UHGV virus genome: UHGV-0282798
Strand: one strand, 5' to 3'
Source: a virus
DNA: 45,006 nt
The translations under genes were made by a program, and so were the position numbers. The notes under the pieces are model-generated. The model searched no databases. It saw only the letters and a list, made by a program, of their open reading frames with translations, and was not told where the DNA came from. This document shows, piece after piece, positions 3,080-45,006 of this stretch (position 1 is its first letter; every line of letters begins with the position of its first letter).

Positions 3080-3248
3080 CTTTGTTCAGATTGAAGCGGT
3101 TAATCAGTTCACGGCGTGTCTCGTAAAGCGACTCAACCATTTGCTCGGCTACAGCGATTTTGGTATTCAGGACGTGCATCACGTGGCCGATGTCTACGCC
3201 GCCGTTAACAGCCTCTACCATCATCTTTTCGTATTCACGGTCGGTCAT
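3063..3248 (-). CDS. Hypothetical protein
   Basis: ORF track. Confidence 0.4.
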   Translation of the reverse strand: MTDREYEKMMVEAVNGGVDIGHVMHVLNTKIAVAEQMVESLYETRRELINRFNLNKGDTNA

Positions 3249-3639: not shown

Positions 3640-3671
3640 AAAAAAAATCCCGGCTGGGTCAGGGCCGGGAT
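3640..3671 (-). terminator. Intrinsic terminator (minus strand)
   Basis: Stem ATCCCGGC (3647-3654) / GCCGGGAT (3664-3671), 9-nt loop; on the minus strand the hairpin is followed by an 8-U run (plus-strand A-run 3640-3647). Downstream of the endolysin gene. Confidence 0.6.
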
Positions 3672-3740
3672 AAAACTGGAGAGTAGAGGGATGAAGCAGG
3701 AGGTGATTTAAGTATCGTCGGATTAGTCTTAGGTGTCAAT

Positions 3741-3774
3741 TGGTAAAATAAAACCCGGATTCGCGGTCCGGGTT
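3741..3774 (-). terminator. Intrinsic terminator (minus strand)
   Basis: Stem AACCCGGA (3752-3759) / TCCGGGTT (3767-3774), loop ttcgcgg; minus-strand RNA continues UUUUAUUUUACC. First of two tandem terminators after the lysis operon. Confidence 0.55.
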
Positions 3775-3902
3775 TCGGTCATAAGCCCCTGAACCCTACG
3801 CAGTCTCCACCGCTTGGGCTGCTGCTTCAGGTTTACCAGGGCTTAGTATGCAAGCACAAGCAGCGTGGAAGTAATTTTACTAAATGCCTTCGTATTCGTC
3901 CA

Positions 3903-4439
3903 TCATTTAACGGCTCTCCCAATAGCCTCAGCCTCTTGCCACGGTTTACCGTCGAACAGCGCCAGACGCCCGGCTGCACGGCGACGCAGGCCGAGTAATG
4001 GTTTGCCGTTCTGGTTGATGAACAGCGCCAGCTTGGCACGCAGTGTTGCAATATCACCTGAGCGCAGCGCCTTACCCGTGCCAGTAGTAGCCGCAATCAC
4101 ACCAGCACCCGCGTTGTAGACCAGGTCACACACAGCGTCGAACTGCGCCTGTGTCAGTGAATGGTGCGCCACCGAATCCACCGCAGCTACGGCCTTAGCC
4201 ATATCGCGATTAAGTAACAGGAGGCCTTGTCCCGGTGTGATGGTCTTGCCTGGAGTCACGTCCGGCCCGTAGTGGCCGTAGCCAATAGTAAGGTACTTCT
4301 CATTCGGCGTAGCACGATACGCAGTTCCGCGGAATCCCTCGAACGCAGCACAGAAATGCAATCCATTATCTGAAATATTTCGAGACACGCTTATGTCCTC
4401 CGTATGACAGCCACGCCTGACGAATCTGGCGCAGCGCAA
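3903..4439 (-). CDS. Endolysin, phage lysozyme (GH24) family
   Basis: EGFRGTAYRATPNEKYLTIGYGH and LTQAQFDAVCDLVYNAGAG match T4-lysozyme-type motifs. Likely true start is GTG at 4386-4388 preceded by GGAGG (ACGGAGGACATAAGC GTG), giving about 162 aa. Confidence 0.8.
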   Translation of the reverse strand: MRCARFVRRGCHTEDISVSRNISDNGLHFCAAFEGFRGTAYRATPNEKYLTIGYGHYGPDVTPGKTITPGQGLLLLNRDMAKAVAAVDSVAHHSLTQAQFDAVCDLVYNAGAGVIAATTGTGKALRSGDIATLRAKLALFINQNGKPLLGLRRRAAGRLALFDGKPWQEAEAIGRAVK

Positions 4440-4638
4440 CTAATGTGATTAATGTCTCAGGCAGCGTAGGTGACATGCTGCCCTGTAACAGGTGGATGCA
4501 TCCGGCGGCGCAGACGATAGCAGTCAGGATATAGAGCACCCGGCCAAATAATCCGTCGTCCACGCTGGGGTGATACACATTAAACAGCGATGCGCCCCCG
4601 ATGGCCAGCATACCGCCGAACCAGAATAACTCATTCAT
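4366..4638 (-). CDS. Holin or antiholin-like membrane protein (2 TM)
   Basis: Hydrophobic segments FWFGGMLAIGGASLF and LYILTAIVCAAGCIHLL; immediately upstream of endolysin. Confidence 0.5.
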   Translation of the reverse strand: MNELFWFGGMLAIGGASLFNVYHPSVDDGLFGRVLYILTAIVCAAGCIHLLQGSMSPTLPETLITLVALRQIRQAWLSYGGHKRVSKYFR

Positions 4639-4939
4639 CCGGGCCTCCTCGACGTGAGATGTATTCCCCGGCGACGATACCGGAGAGGCGGGAATAGATG
4701 GGCATCCAGAGAATGGCGATGATGAATCCGAGGCCAGCTATCTCTCGCTCCCCAGTAATGCCAAACCATTGCGCGGCAAGAGGTGCACCAAACACGGCAC
4801 AGGTGAAGCCGGTTGCAATAAAGCAGAAGCCGTCAATGGGGCCAGAAATAACGGACTTATGTTGTCGTAGTCCGATTACCCCTCCGGCTAGCGCGGCAGC
4901 GAGAAGCCAGCCCGTCACTGTTTCAGTAAATTTATCCAA
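4631..4939 (-). CDS. Holin-like membrane protein (3 predicted TM)
   Basis: Three hydrophobic segments with a charged C-terminal tail RRGGPDE; position in lysis cassette. Confidence 0.55.
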   Translation of the reverse strand: MDKFTETVTGWLLAAALAGGVIGLRQHKSVISGPIDGFCFIATGFTCAVFGAPLAAQWFGITGEREIAGLGFIIAILWMPIYSRLSGIVAGEYISRRGGPDE

Positions 4940-7161: not shown

Positions 7162-7190
7162 TCTGTCTCTCCACTCGTTGGTGTAAATGA

Positions 7191-7219
7191 ATAGTAGCCT
7201 ATTCTATCTCAGTGTGCAA
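7191..7219 (-). promoter_or_regulatory. Sigma70-type promoter (minus strand) TTGCAC-17-TACTAT with AATAG-N4-CTATT dyad
   Basis: Reverse complement: TTGCAC (7214-7219), 17-bp spacer, TACTAT (7191-7196); dyad AATAGTAGCCTATT at 7190-7203. Confidence 0.45.
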
Positions 7220-7525
7220 GTAAATTTTATTGGCGTGTTATAGAATCTATGAACGACAGTAACGCGCGCTCCGCTTCTGCTTCTCTTTCTTCAAGCGACC
7301 AGGTAGCGGATTCCTCTGTTGCCGTTGCTATATCTGTTTTCACATCAATCATCGTGTTGATTAACGCGATTAGTCGTTCGGCCTGTTCTTTAGTAATCAT
7401 TGTTGCATCTCCTGCAATAGTCGCTTCTATTGTTGCGTTTGGTGAAATAGAACAAAAATGAGAAAAATGATACGCTGCTGTGTAGCAGCGTAAGTCACAA
7501 AGCCAAATAGTAACCTATTGACCTG

Positions 7526-8315: not shown

Positions 8316-8478
8316 GATTCGATGCCGTTCGGATAGAACGCAAACTATGTAGCATTCTCCCGGCGGAAGCTGTGATAATCGTTACCCCATCTAAAATAAC
8401 AACCTCGTACCTGTTTACCCGGAAATGCACTTTCTCCAGTTTATGATGTTTCAGCTCTTCAAATAATTCTTCCATCAC
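8269..8478 (-). CDS. Hypothetical protein
   Basis: ORF track (GTG start in track; ATG at 8473-8475 is more likely). Confidence 0.4.
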   Translation of the reverse strand: MMEELFEELKHHKLEKVHFRVNRYEVVILDGVTIITASAGRMLHSLRSIRTASNHDARADDSEGGCRVK

Positions 8479-8672
8479 TTCACCCCTTTGAATTTAAAAT
8501 TGTTGCCGATGAGTTCTAAATACTCCGCGCTTACAGTTGCATGGCCGCCAGTAAATACATTGCGAAGTTTACAAATGGCAGCACTGCCTCTGTTGTTGGT
8601 GGAAAATACGGAGTACAAACATCCCGACTTTTTACTACGGACCAACTGACCCTTCTTAAACATAACCCTCAC
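8475..8672 (-). CDS. Hypothetical protein
   Basis: ORF track; likely start ATG 8661-8663 (MFKKGQLV) with GAGG RBS. Confidence 0.4.
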   Translation of the reverse strand: MRVMFKKGQLVRSKKSGCLYSVFSTNNRGSAAICKLRNVFTGGHATVSAEYLELIGNNFKFKGVK

Positions 8673-8697
8673 CCCTCTGTCTCGTTTCGATAAGTGA

Positions 8698-8726
8698 ATA
8701 GTATCCTATTATGTTTGGGTGTGCAA
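8698..8726 (-). promoter_or_regulatory. Sigma70-type promoter (minus strand) TTGCAC-17-TACTAT with dyad
   Basis: Reverse complement: TTGCAC (8721-8726), 17 bp, TACTAT (8698-8703); dyad AATAGTATCCTATT at 8697-8710; about 30 bp upstream of the first minus-strand early gene. Confidence 0.45.
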
Positions 8727-8899
8727 GAGAATAGTTACGTTGCCGTTGTGATTCTTTCGTTTCTTAAAAGAGTACGCAACGCAGGGGGTGGGCATTAGCC
8801 CACCCCAGCGGAGTGAAGTACTCTCTACCTTGCTCACGGCAACTATAGAAACTTTTAATTATCAGTGACTTGGGTATTTAGGCGGGATTAACAATAGAC

Positions 8900-9000
8900 T
8901 ATGGCCCTTCCGAATGCGGGCAGCGACACTACACTCAGTGCTAACGCACCGCTCCGTTCTCCTGCCGCACCGCGGTCGCTTGTTCATACTTCACAAGCTC
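8900..9000 (-). ncRNA. Conserved structured 5-prime leader RNA or small RNA (putative), copy 1
   Basis: About 100 nt downstream of the repeat promoter are conserved between copies with compensatory changes in two hairpins; the only ORF through it is not conserved in copy 2. Confidence 0.35.
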
Positions 9001-9006
9001 AGGTGG

Positions 9007-9035
9007 AGCTTAGCATATTTTTAGTGAAAAGTCAA
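9007..9035 (-). promoter_or_regulatory. Sigma70 promoter inside repeat copy 1 (minus strand): TTGACT-17-TGcTAAGCT
   Basis: Reverse complement: -35 TTGACT (9030-9035), 17-bp spacer, extended -10 TGC TAAGCT (9007-9015); identical in copy 2. Confidence 0.5.
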
Positions 9036-13121: not shown

Positions 13122-13610
13122 ATGGATTGGCATGAGATATTCGACTATGACCGCGCCACAGGAAAATTGTATTGGAAAATACAGCCATCTCATGCGGTTA
13201 AGCCGGGTGAAGAGGCTGGAAGTGTGGGAACTGAGGGTTATGTAGATGTTGGTTTTGCAGGCCGTTTATATAAGGCGCATCGCATTATATGGGATATGAT
13301 GAACACTGACGATAAACTAACGCCGAACCACCAAATAGACCACATAAACCATATCAGAACGGATAATAGGATAGAAAATTTAAGGAAGGTACACCACTGT
13401 GACAACGCCAAAAATCAAAGCATGCGCGTAGACAATACCTCAGGTGTCGCGGGAGTATACTTCGACCGAACTAATAGAAAATGGAGGGCCCGCATTAGGG
13501 CGAGTGGCACGACCATTTGTTTGGGGAGATACGATAGTTTAGAAGAAGCCGCATGCGCACGCCAGAAAGCAGAAGAGATTTACGGGTTTCACAAAAATCA
13601 TGGGGGGTAA
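13122..13610 (+). CDS. HNH-AP2 homing-type endonuclease
   Basis: HQIDHINHIRTDNRIENLR (HNH) followed by AGVYFDRTNRKWRARIRASGTTICLGRYDSLEEAACARQKAEEIYG (AP2). ORF track starts at 12984; ATG 13122 (MDWHEIF) with RBS avoids overlap. Confidence 0.75.
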   Translation: MDWHEIFDYDRATGKLYWKIQPSHAVKPGEEAGSVGTEGYVDVGFAGRLYKAHRIIWDMMNTDDKLTPNHQIDHINHIRTDNRIENLRKVHHCDNAKNQSMRVDNTSGVAGVYFDRTNRKWRARIRASGTTICLGRYDSLEEAACARQKAEEIYGFHKNHGG

Positions 13611-21211: not shown

Positions 21212-21396
21212 AATTGTTTTGTGTTAGCTCAAACGTACCTGAGTTCAAAGAGGGTGAAGAATATCTGGCCTACTATAACGGCATTGAGTACCGCGTAATT
21301 TATGATGACTCGGGCTACATAATCGCCGATTACGATGATGACTCGGGCTACATAATCGCCGAGTTCTTTAACGACGGTTTGGTGGAGTTCGAATGA
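21208..21396 (+). CDS. Small protein with internal tandem duplication
   Basis: ORF track; protein contains DDSGYIIA twice. Confidence 0.4.
   Translation: MKLFCVSSNVPEFKEGEEYLAYYNGIEYRVIYDDSGYIIADYDDDSGYIIAEFFNDGLVEFE
21304..21360 (+). repeat. Perfect 24-bp direct repeat separated by 9 bp
   Basis: gatgactcgggctacataatcgcc at 21304-21327 and 21337-21360. Confidence 0.8.
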
Positions 21397-21533: not shown

Positions 21534-21538
21534 AGAAA

Positions 21539-21568
21539 AGGCCCCAAACGGGGCCTTAGTTTTAGATA
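21539..21568. terminator. Bidirectional terminator hairpin between convergent blocks
   Basis: Stem AGGCCCC (21539-21545) / GGGGCCT (21550-21556), loop aaac, then TAGTTTTA; near-identical to the hairpin at 34422-34441. Confidence 0.6.
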
Positions 21569-33540: not shown

Positions 33541-34007
33541 AGTACCTTGATGTTTCAAAACAATTTAAATACTGCCCTGATACGGGGCAGGTTACCAGGA
33601 TATCTACTGGTGCTGAGGTTGGTACGGTTGGTGTAAGAGGATATCTGTGCTGCGGTATGGGTGGTAAAACAGTATATGTCCACCGCGTAGCATGGTGTCT
33701 TTATAATAAATGTGACTTAGACAGGAAAACACAAATAGACCACATAAACCATAACAGGCTAGACAATAGAATAGAAAATCTACGCGCCACCGACAATACA
33801 GGGAACAGTAAAAATAAAACTATGAGAAAGATAAATAAATCCGGGGCTACAGGTGTAAGTTTCCACAAAGCCGCGGGTAAGTGGCGCGCGTTTATAAAAG
33901 TTAACTACAAACAAGTGCATTTAGGGCTTTACGACGATTTTGATGTAGCGGTTGCCGCGCGTAAAGCCGCTGAGAGTAAATACGGTTTTCATGAAAACCA
34001 TGAGTAG
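33537..34007 (+). CDS. HNH-AP2 homing-type endonuclease
   Basis: HRVAWCLYN ... QIDHINHNRLDNRIENLR (HNH) and GVSFHKAAGKWRAFIKVNYKQVHLGLYDDFDVAVAARKAAESKYG (AP2); paralog of 13122-13610. Confidence 0.75.
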   Translation: MKYLDVSKQFKYCPDTGQVTRISTGAEVGTVGVRGYLCCGMGGKTVYVHRVAWCLYNKCDLDRKTQIDHINHNRLDNRIENLRATDNTGNSKNKTMRKINKSGATGVSFHKAAGKWRAFIKVNYKQVHLGLYDDFDVAVAARKAAESKYGFHENHE

Positions 34008-34249: not shown

Positions 34250-34418
34250 AAATATTATGAAAACGATATATGTAATCCGTGTATACGACGAAGAATGGGA
34301 CGAGTGGGTTGATATTTACGCTGTAGGTAGTAAGGAAGAGGCCTCTAAAGAGATGGCAGAACGGAGTGACCGAGGTCAGTTAACTAACTTCTACGAAATG
34401 CCATTCAAAAGTGAGTAA
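34200..34418 (+). CDS. Hypothetical small protein
   Basis: ORF track; true start probably an internal ATG (MSENIMKT or MKTIYVIRV). Confidence 0.35.
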   Translation: MKVWRSYESTGVILMSENIMKTIYVIRVYDEEWDEWVDIYAVGSKEEASKEMAERSDRGQLTNFYEMPFKSE

Positions 34419-34421
34419 GAA

Positions 34422-34448
34422 AAGGCCCCGAAAGGGGCCTTAGTTTTA
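34422..34448. terminator. Terminator hairpin closing the plus-strand island
   Basis: Stem AAGGCCCC (34422-34429) / GGGGCCTT (34434-34441), loop gaaa, then AGTTTTA; sits between the island and the convergent major tail gene. Confidence 0.6.
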
Positions 34449-38888: not shown

Positions 38889-38947
38889 AATTTACCTCTT
38901 AGTAAATGAAAAGAGGGACCGAAGTCCCTCTCGATTATAGCTTAACC

Positions 38948-39997
38948 TTAAGCACCGACACCAGTTACCAGGAAGGCAATCGGTACATGCTTACGCTCAA
39001 CAACGCGGTTCCAGTTGGAGGCGTTCGCCAGGTCCTGCCAGGAAGCAGAGCGTGCGACAGTCTCGGTGCCGTTGCCGGTGATTACCGCGCTGGTGAAGCT
39101 GTAGCCCAGTGGGTGCAGCAACCAGGTCTTACGGGTCCACAGGGTTTCAACGCCGCCGCCGTTACCGCGAGACGCTTCACGCTCGTATTCCAGCGGGTTT
39201 GACGGATTACCTTCACCGTAACCGATAGCGCCGTTACCGAAGATGGTGGAGATGAACTTACGGCTAGGACCAGTACCGACTACGGTCATGCTGTCGTCAA
39301 CAATCACGCGGTAGCCCTGGTAGGTGGCGAACATGGTGTTGTTGTCAGCGTCTTTGATGAAGTCAATAAGCTGCTGCTTACGGGCCTGCGCATAAACGAA
39401 ACTGTGCATCGCGATAGCACCCAGTACTTCACCACCGTTACCCATCAGAGCATCGCCCATGGTCTGGGTAGCGTCGATGAATGCGCCCGCGTCGAAGCCC
39501 AGAGTCGCGGACACGTCTACTACCATGTCGTTCTGCTCGTGGTAAGCATCGGTCGCGGCAACGTTGTCGTTGTACAGGCCGAGCGCAGTGGCAATCAGAC
39601 GGCGTTGTGCCTGACGCTGCCAGAAGTTATCCAGACGGGACGCTACAGATTGCAGCGGGTTCTGGCTGGTCAGTTCGACAGTCAGGTCAGCCTGGCCAAA
39701 ACCTTCGTTCAGGTACGCAACGCGCGCCATCATCTCACCGGTCTGCACGTTACGCGGGGTTGCGATGTCCTGGTATACGTCGTTCGAGTAGTTTGGCTCG
39801 ATAGAGGTATCAATCGCTTTCCAGAAAGGAATATTAGCGACGTTGGACGGGCCACGAGCAATCTCGGCAGCGTACGGGGTCGGGGTAAGGATACCGGACT
39901 GGAAGAACGCGGTTTTTTCTACCGGGTCTTCTGTCATGTAAGACGCCAGGACCGGGATGTTGCCAGTTACGATATCGCCGATAGTGGTAATTGCCAT
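38948..39997 (-). CDS. Major capsid protein (putative)
   Basis: 349 aa directly downstream of scaffold; strong RBS GAGGAAATAATA before the ATG; positional call. Confidence 0.6.
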   Translation of the reverse strand: MAITTIGDIVTGNIPVLASYMTEDPVEKTAFFQSGILTPTPYAAEIARGPSNVANIPFWKAIDTSIEPNYSNDVYQDIATPRNVQTGEMMARVAYLNEGFGQADLTVELTSQNPLQSVASRLDNFWQRQAQRRLIATALGLYNDNVAATDAYHEQNDMVVDVSATLGFDAGAFIDATQTMGDALMGNGGEVLGAIAMHSFVYAQARKQQLIDFIKDADNNTMFATYQGYRVIVDDSMTVVGTGPSRKFISTIFGNGAIGYGEGNPSNPLEYEREASRGNGGGVETLWTRKTWLLHPLGYSFTSAVITGNGTETVARSASWQDLANASNWNRVVERKHVPIAFLVTGVGA

Positions 39998-39999
39998 TA

Positions 40000-40755
40000 T
40001 TATTTCCTCAGGGCTTTAAGTTGCCGTTCAAATTCGGCAGGGTTCGATTTATACAGAGCTAAACGCTCCGCTTCACTCATGTCTTTAAACGCTGGTGCGG
40101 CCCCGCCGCCTTTGCTACCGGAAGCCCCGCCGCCGGAAGCTGCATTTGCTTTAATCAAATGCGAAAACGCTTTGTGTTCACGCAGGTATTTGCGGAACTG
40201 TTCCGGGTCAGTCGTGATTACGTTGCCGTCTGCTCCGACAAACTTAGTAACCACGTCATCGCCTTCAAACTCGGTCTTAACGAACGGAGCCAGGATGTCC
40301 ACTGCTTCCGGGGTGATAAAGTCACCCGCGAAAGAGCCTAACACCGCTTTACGTTCGCTGCCGAGGATACGCTCCGCCATTCTGGAGATGCGGCCGTCTT
40401 TCTCGGCTAACACCGGGTCATACTGGCTACGAATCGTCTTTTCAAACTCGTCCATCTTACCAGCGGCTTTTAACGCCTCCTGGTGTGCGCGCTGCCGTTC
40501 TTCTTCGGCCTCTTTTGCTTTGCGAGCGGCTTCTTTCTTCTCCGCCAGCAATGCTTCCTGATTAGCCTTAAGCCCGGCTACTTCTTTCTCAATCAGCGCC
40601 TGAACTTCTTCAGCGGTGAACATTTTCGGCGCATCACCGCCGCCAGATTTATCTTCTGTCCCAGCTTCTTCCTGGAACGGATAACGTAAAAAACGATTCA
40701 TAGTCAGTATGTCCCCTGGACGTTGGAATCCGGGCCACCCGGATTTACATGTCAA
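40000..40755 (-). CDS. Capsid scaffolding protein (putative)
   Basis: Charged helical protein (EEVQALIEKEVAGLKANQEALLAEKKEAARKAKEAEEERQRAHQEALKAAGK) immediately upstream of the capsid gene; likely start ATG 40699-40701 (track start is TTG). Confidence 0.55.
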   Translation of the reverse strand: MTCKSGWPGFQRPGDILTMNRFLRYPFQEEAGTEDKSGGGDAPKMFTAEEVQALIEKEVAGLKANQEALLAEKKEAARKAKEAEEERQRAHQEALKAAGKMDEFEKTIRSQYDPVLAEKDGRISRMAERILGSERKAVLGSFAGDFITPEAVDILAPFVKTEFEGDDVVTKFVGADGNVITTDPEQFRKYLREHKAFSHLIKANAASGGGASGSKGGGAAPAFKDMSEAERLALYKSNPAEFERQLKALRK

Positions 40756-40783
40756 GAATAAATTATTCCAACATGCAAGGCAA

Positions 40784-41047
40784 CTATTCCAGAATATTCC
40801 TCACGTAATCCTGCAACATGAACACTTTCAGCCTCAGTTGCCGTACACATTCAGCGTTCTGAACGTCGATAGCCAAATCCTCGTCAGCATCACTACTTGG
40901 CGGTGCCAGCTTGCACGGCGGCTGCATCATTGTCGTATCCGGGGATGGAATTGGCGTTTGCGACGGCGCGGGACTTGAGTTGCACGCGCTCAGGGTCAAA
41001 AGTGCACACGCTGCGGCTAGGCGTTTTAATGTACTTAACGACTTCAC
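40784..41047 (-). CDS. o-spanin (Rz1-like lipoprotein)
   Basis: Signal peptide with lipobox LTLSAC, Pro-rich mature part; +1-frame gene overlapping the 3-prime half of the Rz-like gene. Confidence 0.6.
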   Translation of the reverse strand: MKSLSTLKRLAAACALLTLSACNSSPAPSQTPIPSPDTTMMQPPCKLAPPSSDADEDLAIDVQNAECVRQLRLKVFMLQDYVRNILE

Positions 41048-41279
41048 GGGTAATCACCTCTGATTTCGTCTTGCCTTCGTTGTCGGCGGCTGCGGCCTTT
41101 GACTCATCCTGCTGCTGCCGTTGTGTCTTCTTAGCTAACTCAGCCTTCGCTTTTTGGGTTTGTTCGGTAACGAGGTCAAGCCGTCCCGCATCCCAGCCGC
41201 GGTTGTATTGGTACCCCCCGTACAGCCATACCGTAAGCAAGCCTGCCGCCGTTAGTGTTGCTGTGTTGCTTAGATTCAT
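40893..41279 (-). CDS. i-spanin (Rz-like)
   Basis: N-terminal TM (TATLTAAGLLTVWLYGGY) then a charged helical periplasmic region; overlaps the Rz1-like ORF. Confidence 0.55.
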   Translation of the reverse strand: MNLSNTATLTAAGLLTVWLYGGYQYNRGWDAGRLDLVTEQTQKAKAELAKKTQRQQQDESKAAAADNEGKTKSEVITREVVKYIKTPSRSVCTFDPERVQLKSRAVANANSIPGYDNDAAAVQAGTAK

Positions 41280-41397
41280 GTTTCCCCTTTCTCGATAAGT
41301 AAAGCCCCGCCTTAAAGCGGGGCGCTAGTCCTTATCATTTAAACATAGAAACGGCGTAATCTCAGTAAACCAGTTACTCTTTACACAAGCAAAAGAG

Positions 41398-41532
41398 TAT
41401 GGCCCTTCCGAACGCGTCAGCGTAACTACACTCAGGACTTACGTCCCGCTCCGTTACCTGCCCGCGCCGCGGTCGCTCGTTCATACTTCACAAGCTCAGG
41501 TGGAGCTTATCATATTTTTAGTGAAAAGTCAA
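41398..41532. repeat. Repeat copy 2 of the ~135-bp promoter-plus-leader element
   Basis: Aligns with 8900-9035; lies between the terminator at 41591-41617 and the Rz start at 41279. Confidence 0.85.
41504..41532 (-). promoter_or_regulatory. Sigma70 promoter inside repeat copy 2 (minus strand): TTGACT-17-TGaTAAGCT
   Basis: Reverse complement: -35 41527-41532, -10 41504-41509 with upstream TG. Confidence 0.5.
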
Positions 41533-41590
41533 CTATTCGAATAGTTTATTCCAACATTTACAATTGATTGGAATAACTGGAATAATTACG

Positions 41591-41617
41591 AGCCATAAAA
41601 AGCCCCTTTCGGGGCTT
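41591..41617 (-). terminator. Intrinsic terminator (mainly minus strand)
   Basis: Stem AAGCCCC (41600-41606) / GGGGCTT (41611-41617), loop tttc; on the minus strand it is followed by UUUUAUGG. Confidence 0.55.
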
Positions 41618-41621
41618 CAGT

Positions 41622-42083
41622 TTATTCTGGCTTAGTCACCTTCGCCGCTTTGCTTACACCCTCTACACCATCGGCATCGGTAACTTTAACGAAGTATTCA
41701 CCGACCACATTAACCGTCAGAGACAGAGCTTCTTCTGGGGCGTTGACTACTTCCTTACCGTCTTTGTACCAGGTCAGCACATACGGCGCTTTGCCCGCCT
41801 TAACTTCGACAGTGATAGTTGCGCTGCCGTCTGCCAGTTCCGCATCCTGCGGTTGCACAGAGAAATACACGTCGCCAGCGTCCGCCAGATACGGAATCTC
41901 ATAAAGCATACCCGCCGCGGGCAGCGCGATGCCTGTTTTATCCGCAAACGGCATATCGTCTACCGGTGTACCGAGTACACTTTCGTCTTCAATAAACACC
42001 ACGTTCTCACCAGAGCCGGATACACGGGCGTACTGGACTACGCGGCGCGCGGGTACATCGGTTACTTTGAAAAAGCCCATCAT
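41622..42083 (-). CDS. Ig-like domain protein
   Basis: GKAPYVLTWYKDGKEV ... GEYFVKVTD looks like an I-set/Big-type domain; position after the Mu-F-like gene. Confidence 0.45.
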   Translation of the reverse strand: MMGFFKVTDVPARRVVQYARVSGSGENVVFIEDESVLGTPVDDMPFADKTGIALPAAGMLYEIPYLADAGDVYFSVQPQDAELADGSATITVEVKAGKAPYVLTWYKDGKEVVNAPEEALSLTVNVVGEYFVKVTDADGVEGVSKAAKVTKPE

Positions 42084-44689: not shown

Positions 44690-45006
44690 TTAAAGTGCGA
44701 AACGAACTGGGGTATTGATAACAGGGCGGACAACAGGGAACAACCTATGCATACAATAGCCTAAACTGTCATTCCAGTCGTCGATAGCTGGGTGAGTTTT
44801 AAACTTCTCCGGTTCACCATTATCGTTATACCCCTGCGTCTCTAGTGACTGCGTTAATTTAGGGCATTTTGAAGTGTTAATCCTCAAACGGCTATGTGAC
44901 AAAAGCGCGTTAACCGCGTTTATTCTGTCTTTAACGAATGGGTTCTTACTTGGAGCGTTAACACGTAAGCCGGCCTTTTCGATGATACCTATGTCGGATA
45001 ATGATG
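44690..45006 (-). CDS. terL: Terminase large subunit, C-terminal ~105 codons (continuation of 1-919)
   Basis: Minus-strand frame is open from 45006 to the stop at 44690-44692 (...SLSDIGIIEKAGLRVNAPSKNPFVKDRINAVN...). Position 1 plus 45006-45005 form one codon (GCA), so the junction is in frame. Confidence 0.75.
   Translation of the reverse strand, partial: SLSDIGIIEKAGLRVNAPSKNPFVKDRINAVNALLSHSRLRINTSKCPKLTQSLETQGYNDNGEPEKFKTHPAIDDWNDSLGYCMHRLFPVVRPVINTPVRFAL

What the first reader, a model, noticed from the sequence alone, without database searches (positions are those of the whole stretch)
41398..41532. Copy 2 sits directly upstream of the spanin genes; the two copies head the blocks that contain the separated lysis genes
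Copy 2 lies between a terminator (41591-41617) that ends transcription coming from the portal/head genes and the start of the Rz/Rz1-like spanin pair (41279), which is followed by the scaffold and capsid genes. Copy 1 heads the minus-strand block (8672 downward) that ends with the two holin-like genes, the endolysin and two tandem terminators (3640-3774). The holin/endolysin and spanin loci are about 36 kb apart yet each lies downstream of a copy of the same promoter and leader, which would be one way to co-regulate a split lysis cassette. A short GC-rich hairpin followed by UUUACUU (about 41300-41325) lies between copy 2 and the Rz RBS and could be an attenuator.
Basis: inference. Interest (0 to 1): 0.65.

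Follow-up and report, generated by a model that had tools for sequence, protein, structure and literature searches.

The report
Promoter plus structured leader RNA cassette
The duplicated 143-base unit in this E. coli phage is a host-type promoter fused to a conserved, folded leader RNA with no match in Rfam; it starts the capsid-assembly operon and is probably not a device built to coordinate the scattered lysis genes.

Summary
Copy 2 (41390-41532, minus strand) lies between a terminator (41598-41619) and the spanin start (41279). Copy 1 (8892-9035) heads the block that contains holins and endolysin. The window is a complete, circularly permuted Kagunavirus genome.

The repeat is TTGACT-N17-TGnTAAGCT followed by a ~108-nt structured RNA: a 5'-terminal hairpin and a 65-nt irregular hairpin with a conserved internal loop. 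Covariation across 41 distinct sequences is strong (93% paired versus 30-41% in slid controls). No Rfam family matches. The overlapping ORF annotated in GenBank is not conserved.

The lysis co-regulation idea is weakly supported:
- Copy 1 is missing from about three quarters of relatives that have the same split lysis genes.
- Two other promoters and a terminator lie between copy 1 and the holins.
- Copy 2 alone has a conserved upstream TTATTCC repeat cluster.
- More distant relatives carry an unsplit holin-endolysin-spanin cassette at the copy 2 site without the element.

Most likely this is a portable promoter-leader cassette acting in cis on its own transcripts, through 5'-end protection and/or read-through control. 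That mechanism is inferred. A put-like, factor-independent antiterminator is not excluded.

The parts
41546..41585 (-). Upstream repeat cluster found only at copy 2: TTATTCCA-G-TTATTCCA, then 15 nt, then the inverted TGGAATAA. Candidate regulator-binding site.
   Evidence: Three exact 7/8-mers within 40 bp; 0 of 300 shuffles reach this. Conserved at the same offset in class A, F and G loci and absent upstream of copy 1.
41598..41619 (-). Intrinsic terminator-like hairpin that ends the portal / head-morphogenesis / Hoc-like unit.
   Evidence: Member of a 3-copy terminator family (D3).
41504..41532 (-). Copy 2 promoter: -35 TTGACT (41527-41532), 17-bp spacer, extended -10 TG (41511-41512), -10 TAAGCT (41504-41509).
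   Evidence: Only two matches in the window. Invariant across relatives, and the base between TG and the hexamer varies freely. Annotated 'host promoter' in OM272052.1. A one-mismatch operator-like site, 41524-41537, overlaps the -35.
41390..41497 (-). Copy 2 structured leader RNA core, with predicted TSS at 41497/41496. P1 hairpin 41475-41495; long P2-P3-P4 hairpin 41408-41472; tail AAGGGCCAUACUCUUUUG 41390-41407.
   Evidence: The MFE fold shows the same architecture in classes A, B and F. Covariation is shown. CM R1 scores 127 bits. No Rfam hit.
41280..41389 (-). Rest of the copy 2 leader, including the conserved block GAUUACGCCGUUUCUAUGUUUA and the spanin RBS.
   Evidence: Nearly invariant among class A relatives even where the spanin N-terminus diverges.
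41304..41323 (-). GC-rich hairpin GCCCCGC-UUUAA-GGCGGGGC followed by UUUACUUAU: a weak terminator or structural hairpin 25 nt before the spanin start.
   Evidence: Compensatory change in Shashou (GCCCAGC/GCUGGGC). Annotated as a terminator by ARNold in OM272052.1. Class F has GCCCGGC/GCCGGGC with no U-tract.
38948..41279 (-). Cargo of copy 2: i-spanin 40893-41279, o-spanin 40784-41047, scaffold 40000-40755, major capsid protein 38948-39997.
   Evidence: PHROGs; Shashou annotation.
38911..38932 (-). Terminator after the capsid gene. The head-completion and tail-tube genes follow it down to 34446, and the scan finds only chance-level promoter-like sites in that stretch.
   Evidence: This terminator is also present in relatives that lack the leader.
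9007..9035 (-). Copy 1 promoter (TTGACT-N17-TGcTAAGCT).
8892..9000 (-). Copy 1 structured leader RNA core (class B): P1 8978-8998, long hairpin 8910-8975, tail 8892-8909.
   Evidence: (116.9 bits). Compensatory differences from copy 2 in P2, P3 and P4.
8785..8806 (-). GC hairpin GGGGUGGGC-UAAU-GCCCACCCC downstream of copy 1, with no U-tract.
8691..8727 (-). Separate operator-bearing promoter (TTGCAC-N17-TACTAT around AATAG-N4-CTATT) between copy 1 and its first gene (8475-8672).
   Evidence: Retained in K1G, which lacks copy 1.
7190..7492 (-). Terminator 7471-7492 and a second operator-bearing promoter 7190-7222, between copy 1 and the lysis genes.
3640..4939 (-). Holins 4631-4939 and 4366-4638, endolysin 3903-4439, tandem terminators 3745-3775 and 3640-3672.

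Best explanation
The repeat is a portable expression cassette. It consists of a sigma-70 promoter with an extended -10 (TTGACT-N17-TGnTAAGCT) fused to a roughly 108-nt structured 5' leader RNA.

The RNA has four notable parts:
- a hairpin (P1) within about 3 nt of the predicted transcript start;
- a 65-nt irregular hairpin (P2-P3-P4) whose base carries an invariant CCG-C-GG / UU-CGG segment with two G.U pairs and a bulged C;
- a conserved internal loop, G(G/A)AG opposite AG(U/C)GUA, under a freely variable apical stem-loop;
- a conserved tail, GGAAGGG...UCUAUUG.

Copy 2 is the conserved one. It restarts transcription after the terminator that ends the portal/head unit and drives spanin, scaffold, capsid and the genes beyond. 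Copy 1 is a paralogous cassette placed, in a minority of Kagunaviruses, at the head of the long leftward unit and upstream of that unit's own promoter.

I commit to a cis-acting role: the leader governs the fate of transcripts started at its own promoter. P1 would protect the 5' end. The sequence-conserved core would serve as a docking site, for RNA polymerase or for a protein, that determines passage through the hairpin or terminator structures downstream. The link to lysis genes is a by-product of where these operons begin.

Shown: the promoter consensus, the RNA structure and its covariation, the strand, the distribution, the cassette boundaries, and the lack of a conserved ORF. Inferred: the TSS, action in cis, and the stabilisation or read-through mechanism.

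Rough split of my belief:
- cis-acting leader 0.65-0.7. Within that, read-through/antitermination-type control about 0.3, stability or processing about 0.3, other about 0.1.
- trans-acting RNA about 0.15-0.2.
- anything else, including a lysis-specific or DNA-level role, the remainder.
For: - Repeat and promoter.
- The same two-domain fold arises independently in three divergent classes.
- RNAalifold on an unfitted MAFFT alignment recovers P1, P2 and P3 with compensatory pairs.
- On 41 distinct sequences, 93.4% of cells are paired versus 30-41% when partners are slid. Fourteen pairs change on both sides. Covariation score is 0.344 versus 0.056 or less.
- Conserved G.U pairs fix the transcribed strand as the gene strand.
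- A divergent class F sits at the same position 1.4 kb upstream of the capsid gene. It has P1 fully re-written (ACGCU/AGCGU) and the same internal loop.
- The ORF is lost or frameshifted in many members: 9-48 aa, with no ATG in classes C and F.
- Cassette boundaries are sharp. K1G keeps the sequence from GUCUAUU onward but lacks the promoter and core.
- Cores are swapped between the two sites in different phages and are always of different class within one genome.
- The core lies 130 nt or more from the first RBS. At copy 1 it is separated from the first gene by another promoter, which argues against translational control.
- All genes from 8672 through the window ends to 34446 are co-directional and punctuated by terminators.
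- No antisense targets for the conserved loops exist in the phage genome.
Against: - No transcript data at nucleotide resolution exist; the TSS is only predicted.
- The downstream hairpin lacks a U-tract in class F and in the G/H leaders, so read-through control of that hairpin cannot be general.
- The terminator after the capsid gene is present whether or not the leader is.
- No partner protein was identified.
- A stabilising role alone would not require conserved unpaired nucleotides.
- At copy 1 the arrangement (own promoter, RNA, hairpin, then another promoter) also looks like a free-standing small RNA gene.
- The covariation alignment (A3) was fitted to the model, which inflates the pair counts somewhat.
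Confidence: 0.55

Rival explanations
1. One reading: the two copies exist to co-regulate a split lysis cassette, giving holin/endolysin and the spanins the same promoter, leader and timing, with the hairpin at 41304-41323 acting as an attenuator.
For: In this genome each copy does lie upstream of one half of the lysis genes, and promoter and leader are near-identical. Cores are interchangeable between the two sites. Gene-level RNA-seq of a related phage places endolysin and capsid-module genes in the same broad 'middle' class (PMC12645636).
Against: Copy 1 is absent from about three quarters of BLAST-detected relatives that have the same split lysis genes. This includes the phage used for that RNA-seq, which has one place only (row H68). 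Two promoters and a terminator intervene between copy 1 and the holins. Copy 2 has a private upstream repeat cluster. Its cargo is dominated by scaffold and capsid. The U-tract of the 'attenuator' is not conserved.
Confidence: 0.12
2. The leader is a functional analogue of HK022 put RNA. The nascent two-hairpin RNA binds the E. coli or Salmonella RNA polymerase that made it and renders it resistant to pausing and termination, without phage proteins. Polymerases started at these two promoters would then read through the many terminators of the 19-kb co-directional late region.
For: The element is promoter-proximal and has two adjacent hairpin domains with conserved bulges and internal loops and a variable apex. 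Two paralogous copies head two multi-terminator units. At copy 1 it lies upstream of a second promoter for the same genes, which makes sense if only one class of polymerase is terminator-resistant. A precedent exists in a phage of the same host (PMC9378689).
Against: There is no sequence or model similarity to putL/putR. The sizes differ: 21 + 65 nt here versus two stems of about 35 nt in put. Terminators persist in relatives without the element. Relatives replace the core with different leaders. Nothing functional was tested.
Confidence: 0.15
3. The cassette is a small-RNA gene. A roughly 195-nt RNA is made from the strong promoter, ends at the downstream hairpin, and acts in trans on host or phage targets or as a protein sponge. 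Read-through into spanin would be incidental, as with the lambda PR'-tR' transcript and StxS (analogy from my own knowledge of the literature).
For: The unit has its own promoter, a structured RNA and a GC hairpin at both sites. At copy 1 a separate promoter serves the genes. The class A hairpin is scored as a terminator by two methods. The cassette can be gained or lost without the downstream block. A weak promoter-like match (TTTACT-N16-TATGTT / GTCACT-N16-TATAGT) lies between the core and the hairpin in both copies (read).
Against: U-tracts are short or absent: UUUACUU in class A, UUAGCG in class F, none at copy 1. No complementary targets for the conserved loops exist in the phage genome. 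Copy 2 is the only consensus-quality promoter between the upstream terminator and spanin/scaffold/capsid; the only other candidate there is the weak match listed above.
Confidence: 0.15
4. The conserved unit encodes the small protein annotated in some GenBank records (36 aa at copy 2, 41 aa at copy 1).
For: An ATG-initiated ORF overlaps both copies and is annotated as a hypothetical protein in Shashou and fBC-Eco01.
Against: The ATG is missing in classes C and F and in some class A members. Compensating 1-nt indels shift the frame. Predicted products range from 9 to 48 aa with unrelated C-termini. Substitutions follow base-pairing, not codons. The candidate RBS is poor.
Confidence: 0.03

Closest known systems
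HK022 putL / putR polymerase-utilisation RNAs
   Same: Cis-transcribed RNAs just downstream of sigma-70 promoters in an E. coli phage. Two copies share sequence and head two operons. Each has two stem-loop domains with functionally important bulges (PMC9378689).
   Different: No detectable sequence or covariance-model similarity. Domain sizes differ. The host phage is virulent (Guernseyvirinae), not lambdoid. Only one copy is universal. Antitermination activity is untested.
Lambda-type late leader (PR' - 6S RNA - tR', Q-dependent; StxS in Stx phages). Comparison from my own knowledge of the literature.
   Same: A strong constitutive-looking promoter, then a leader of about 195 nt ending in a terminator-like hairpin, placed directly upstream of lysis genes followed by head genes.
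   Different: No Q-like gene appears in the annotated relative. The initially transcribed -10-like element is poor (TGAGCT). The U-tract is weak and not conserved. Here the RNA itself is under structural selection, which is not a known feature of lambda 6S RNA.
5'-terminal stabilising stem-loops of long-lived mRNAs (e.g. the ompA 5' UTR). Comparison from my own knowledge of the literature.
   Same: A hairpin starts within about 3 nt of the predicted 5' end in classes A and F. Its sequence is free to vary while the pairing is kept. It precedes highly expressed genes and is portable.
   Different: Most of the conserved information lies in a second, larger domain with invariant unpaired nucleotides. 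A simple stabiliser would not need this.
Phage RNase III processing hairpins (T7 R sites, lambda N leader). Comparison from my own knowledge of the literature.
   Same: An irregular hairpin of about 65 nt: lower stem, asymmetric internal loop, upper stem.
   Different: It lies at the very start of the transcript rather than between genes. No cleavage data exist, and no sequence relation was tested or could be tested.
Rfam release 15 families
   Same: None.
   Different: No match at gathering thresholds in the window or in related loci. Only chance-level hits (E of about 1 or more) appear with permissive settings.

Membership tests
HK022 put RNA | Lies in the transcribed leader immediately downstream of a sigma-70 promoter | tested here: met
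   The core begins about 3 nt after the predicted TSS of TTGACT-N17-TGnTAAGCT. The TSS is predicted, not mapped.
HK022 put RNA | About 70 nt forming two adjacent long stem-loops with bulges | tested here: inconclusive
   Two adjacent hairpin domains are present, but they are 21 nt and 65 nt with a 2-nt junction.
HK022 put RNA | Sequence/structure homology to putL and putR | tested here: not met
   putL and putR were extracted from NC_002166 and share CGAACGG / GGAUGA..CAAUG blocks that are absent here. Model R1 finds nothing in the HK022 region (best 4.3 bits).
HK022 put RNA | Factor-independent suppression of termination through the beta' zinc-binding domain | not testable with these tools
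   Needs in vitro transcription or rpoC mutants.
Lambda Q / PR' late control | Q-family antiterminator gene in the genome | tested here: not met
   None is present in the full curated annotation of the close relative Shashou. This check rests on annotation only.
Lambda Q / PR' late control | A -10-like element in the initially transcribed region that causes a sigma-dependent pause | tested here: inconclusive
   TGAGCT, 9 nt downstream of the -10, lacks the key A at position 2. Class F repeats its own -10 (TACGCT) at the same offset.
Lambda N / nut | boxA (CGCUCUUUA-like) plus a 15-nt boxB hairpin with a fixed loop | tested here: not met
   The boxA-like CUCUAUU varies at the critical positions (GUC, AUC, UUC, GGC). 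The apical loop varies freely: GUAA, GUUA, AUUA, CUCG, UCUCAA.
RfaH / ops | GGCGGTAGnnTG in the leader | tested here: not met
   No site in either leader on the transcribed (-) strand; the single 2-mismatch match at 8971-8982 is on the + strand, opposite copy 1's core. Genome-wide matches are at chance level.
Intrinsic terminator / attenuator (hairpin 41304-41323) | GC-rich stem-loop followed immediately by a U-tract, conserved among relatives | tested here: inconclusive
   The stem is conserved with compensatory changes. The tail is UUUACUUAU in class A, which the scan and ARNold both score as a terminator. It is UUAGCGUAU in class F and non-U in classes G/H.
Riboswitch | Conserved aptamer plus mutually exclusive pairing with an expression platform | tested here: inconclusive
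   An aptamer-like conserved core exists. No Rfam class matches. I found only 5-6-nt GC complementarities to the hairpin, and these were not conserved in form.
Protein-coding gene | Reading frame and start codon conserved among homologues | tested here: not met

The most novel reading that the evidence does not exclude
The leader is a second, unrelated family of put-like RNAs. The nascent RNA would dock on the host RNA polymerase and make it terminator-resistant without any phage protein. Virulent E. coli and Salmonella siphoviruses would use it to push transcription through the multi-terminator late region. The interchangeable core 'classes' would then be structurally equivalent variants kept divergent to avoid recombination between the two copies.
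Probability: 0.15. Interest if true: 0.8.

Novelty: new variant of a known kind. Interest (0 to 1): 0.45.

Why it matters
Kagunaviruses and Jerseyviruses are widely isolated as therapeutic and biocontrol phages, yet their gene regulation is essentially unstudied. This work adds three things:
- It defines a compact, portable promoter-leader unit that launches the capsid operon.
- It shows that a 'hypothetical protein' annotated in several GenBank records is probably a structured RNA.
- It identifies a private upstream repeat cluster that may bind a regulator of late transcription.

If the RNA modifies polymerase or transcript fate on its own, it would be a rare factor-independent RNA regulator. 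It would also be a useful part for expression engineering in enterobacteria. If it only stabilises mRNA, it is an ordinary though cleanly defined leader.

Tried and rejected
- **Rfam.** Searched at gathering and at permissive thresholds, on the window and on divergent relatives. Nothing found. No tRNA or tmRNA.
- **Small-protein reading.** Rejected.
- **Homology to HK022 put.** Rejected.
- **ops, boxA/boxB and K-turn readings.** The ops motif was searched. boxA/boxB and K-turn were checked by inspection. None fits.
- **Pseudoknot between the P1 loop (GUAUG) and the tail (CAUAC).** Lost in classes B, C, E and F, so rejected.
- **Conserved UUG mini-ORF after the SD-like GGAAGGG.** Its length varies from 1 to 10 codons and it is absent in class H, so rejected.
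- **Palindrome between the -10 region and the P1 5' strand.** Present in class A, but it becomes a direct repeat in class F. Left as an oddity.
- **Host or prophage origin.** No match in 5,426 complete E. coli genomes. A pattern scan of 185,579 species genomes gave 17 hits. Only two score with the model, and both are phage contigs (L291, L301). Two weak hits lie inside ORFs and are chance.
- **Antisense targets.** None in the phage genome for the conserved loops.
- **Link between the leader and the terminator after the capsid gene.** No correlation.
- **Loose viral-contig patterns.** The exact 14-mer and the loose gapped pattern returned mostly chance hits. The real copies had to be sorted out with BLAST or the covariance model.
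- **Published RNA-seq of a related phage.** It is gene-level only and cannot resolve the leader.
- **Not done.** The metagenome scan was not used. I did not test whether classes G and H are statistically detectable homologues.

Full report
**What the window is.** BLAST of the region places it in the genus Kagunavirus (Guernseyvirinae); the nearest record is PV845598.1. The large terminase gene is split across the two ends of the window. Residues encoded at 2-922 and at 44690-45004 match consecutive halves of the same terminase profile, so the window is one complete, circularly permuted genome. It follows that every gene from 8672 down to 1, and on from 45006 down to 34446, lies on the minus strand. 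This is a co-directional stretch of about 19 kb, punctuated by terminator-like hairpins.

**Checking the observation.** The repeat is real and is the longest in the genome. Copy 1 is 8892-9035 and copy 2 is 41390-41532. Each is about 143 nt, and they are 87-89% identical.
- Copy 2 lies between a terminator hairpin (41598-41619), which follows the Hoc-like decoration gene, and the i-spanin start at 41279.
- PHROGs confirm the spanin pair, scaffold, two holins and endolysin.
- The tandem terminators after the endolysin are at 3745-3775 and 3640-3672.
- The GC hairpin at 41304-41323 followed by UUUACUUAU is there, and it is the top terminator-like site in its region.

**What the repeat is.** Each copy begins with TTGACT, a 17-bp spacer, and TGnTAAGCT. 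These are the only two such sites in the genome. The site is annotated as a predicted host promoter in phage fBC-Eco01.

From about 3 nt after the predicted start, the transcript folds into two domains. The first is a small hairpin, P1. The second is a 65-nt irregular hairpin, P2-P3-P4. The same architecture is the minimum-free-energy fold of copy 2, of copy 1, and of a much more divergent relative.

I collected homologues from viral contigs and from annotated GenBank phage records, then built a covariance model. It recovered 45 instances, 41 of them distinct, and these fall into sequence classes A-F.
- 93.4% of pair cells are standard pairs, against 30-41% when partners are slid by 1-3 columns.
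- Fourteen of 28 pairs show changes on both sides. One P2 pair occurs as C-G, U-A and A-U.
- The covariation score is 0.344, against 0.056 or less in the slid controls.
- This alignment was fitted to the model. However, RNAalifold on a plain MAFFT alignment already recovers P1, P2 and part of P3 with compensatory changes.
- Conserved G.U pairs show that the RNA is read from the gene strand.

What stays constant in sequence is:
- the base of P2 (CCG-C-GG opposite UU-CGG);
- the internal loop G(G/A)AG opposite AG(U/C)GUA;
- the tail GGAAGGG...UCUAUUG.

The apical stem-loop P4 varies freely, and so does the sequence of P1. No Rfam family matches at any threshold.

The ORF that some GenBank records annotate here is not conserved. 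Its start codon is missing in several classes, single-base indels shift its frame, and predicted products range from 9 to 48 residues.

**Distribution and evolution.** The element was found only in Guernseyvirinae-type phage sequences.
- It has no match in 5,426 complete E. coli genomes.
- In species-representative bacterial genomes it appears only on two stray contigs that carry the phage element (L291 with phage-like flanking ORFs, L301 a 738-bp scaffold).
- Among 181 GenBank phages detected by BLAST there are 224 places, so only about 43 carry a second copy.
- Copy 2, upstream of the spanins, is the universal one. Divergent class F copies occupy the same position in Jersey-like contigs.
- K1G lacks copy 1 but retains everything from GUCUAUU onward, including the downstream hairpin and the operator-bearing promoter. 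The cassette therefore has sharp boundaries and is dispensable at that site.
- Core classes are shuffled between the two sites in different phages. In every two-copy genome examined, the two cores belong to different classes. This fits functional equivalence, plus selection against recombination between direct repeats 32 kb apart.
- Slightly more distant relatives have other multi-hairpin leaders that share only the P2 base and a UAGUCUAUU motif (classes G and H).
- Still more distant relatives carry an unsplit holin-endolysin-spanin cassette in the same slot between the Hoc-like and scaffold genes, without the element.

The descriptive part is correct, and the interchangeability of cores supports 'same regulation in cis'. 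Several points argue against a device for coordinating a split lysis cassette:
- Most relatives split their lysis genes in the same way and manage with copy 2 alone.
- The holins have nearer promoters of a different, operator-controlled type.
- Besides the spanins, copy 2 also heads the scaffold and capsid genes.
- Copy 2 alone is preceded by a conserved cluster of three exact TTATTCC repeats at 41546-41585. No shuffle among 300 reproduces this cluster. It is conserved in classes A, F and G and absent upstream of copy 1. This cluster is a candidate regulator site that would make initiation control differ between the two copies.
- The hairpin proposed as an attenuator is conserved as a structure, with compensatory changes. 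Its U-tract is weak in class A and absent in classes F, G and H.
- The only transcriptome study of a relative works at gene level. It puts endolysin and capsid genes in the same broad class, and it does so in a phage that has only copy 2.

**Mechanism.** Nothing here measures function, so this part is inference.
- Translational control of the first gene is unlikely. The core sits at the very start of the transcript, more than 130 nt from the nearest ribosome-binding site. At copy 1 another promoter lies in between.
- A simple stabiliser does not explain the invariant unpaired nucleotides, tandem G.U pairs and bulged C. These features point to a specific partner.
- The 5'-terminal P1, conserved only as a pairing, does fit 5'-end protection.
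- The co-directional, terminator-rich layout gives a read-through or antitermination role a rationale. So does the placement of copy 1 upstream of a second promoter for the same genes. HK022 put RNA is the obvious analogue. However, put shares no sequence or model similarity, and the terminator after the capsid gene persists in relatives that lack the leader.
- A free-standing small RNA remains possible. I found no antisense targets in the phage genome, and the hairpins are poor terminators.

My conclusion is that this is a cis-acting promoter-leader cassette. About equal weight goes to transcript stabilisation or processing and to read-through control. About 0.15 goes to a truly put-like, factor-independent mechanism.

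**Novelty.** The promoter, the terminator-like hairpin and the split lysis genes have been noted in genome papers and records. I found no description of the structured RNA, its covariation, its cassette behaviour or the copy 2-specific upstream repeats, either in Rfam or in the literature searches I ran in the held library. It is a new RNA motif of a familiar general kind.

Noticed in passing
window 41546-41585: Three exact TTATTCC(A) repeats, two direct and one inverted, lie just upstream of the copy 2 promoter. They are conserved at the same offset in class A, F and G relatives and absent upstream of copy 1. This is a candidate binding site for a transcription factor that controls the capsid operon.
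   Followed up: partly
window 40763-40800: Three GGAATA motifs (the same word as the upstream repeats, in the opposite orientation) sit in the short spanin-scaffold intergenic region, just before the scaffold start.
   Followed up: no
window 3609, 7190, 7506, 8697, 12306, 12350, 15095, 18871, 32137, 41524, 43152 (each a 14-nt site): The palindrome AATAG-N4-CTATT occurs 11 times against about 1 expected. It is mostly embedded in sigma-70-like promoters on both strands and so looks like an operator for a phage repressor. One one-mismatch copy overlaps the -35 of copy 2. The motif was published as a 'phage RNA polymerase promoter' consensus for fBC-Eco01 (PMC9825357), although no phage RNA polymerase gene appears in the annotated relative.
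   Followed up: partly
window 21534-21564, 34418-34448, 41595-41625: Three copies of one 31-nt bidirectional terminator hairpin (AAGGCCCC-NNNN-GGGGCCTT) mark the ends of the convergent or successive gene blocks.
   Followed up: no
L037/L227 and L123 (contig IMGVR_UViG_3300045988_039442); other two-copy contigs: Leader core classes are exchanged between the copy 1 and copy 2 sites in different phages. Within any one genome the two cores are always of different class, which suggests gene conversion balanced by selection against long identical direct repeats.
   Followed up: partly
L261 2800-4900; L276 3200-5230: Relatives with 84-90% identical capsid protein carry holin, endolysin and spanin together between the Hoc-like and scaffold genes. 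In L261 a tRNA gene (3166-3240) precedes them. The spanin position in the window therefore looks like the remnant of an ancestral complete lysis cassette.
   Followed up: partly
L257 3919-4180, L260 4120-4390, L268 3853-4170, L270 3731-4050: Other lineages have different multi-hairpin leaders at the same site. They share only the CCG...CGG(R)RGG segment and a UAGUCUAUU motif with the window's element. Whether they are homologous or convergent was not resolved.
   Followed up: partly
window 41498-41509 and 9001-9012; L265 4505-4525: The -10 hexamer is nearly repeated 9 nt downstream as the 5' strand of P1: TAAGCT...TGAGCT here and TACGCT...TACGCT in class F. The two co-vary between classes. The reason is unknown; possibilities include an alternative pairing in read-through transcripts or a pause element.
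   Followed up: no
window 41340-41375 and 8838-8873: Both copies, and K1G at the copy 1 site, share a second conserved block, (T/G)T(T/C)ACTGA...GTTTCTAT(G/A)(T/G)T. It can be read as a weak promoter (TTTACT-N16-TATGTT / GTCACT-N16-TATAGT) firing just upstream of the GC hairpin.
   Followed up: no
window 13332-13382 and 33732-33782; 21302-21367: A 51-nt direct repeat (84% identical) lies 20 kb apart. There is also a tandem 33-nt duplication near the end of the replication block.
   Followed up: no
GenBank MK931440.1 5621-5731 (CPT_Shashou_007); OM272052.1 6200-6316 (fBCEco01_09): Hypothetical-protein CDS features annotated over the leader RNA are probably spurious.
   Followed up: yes
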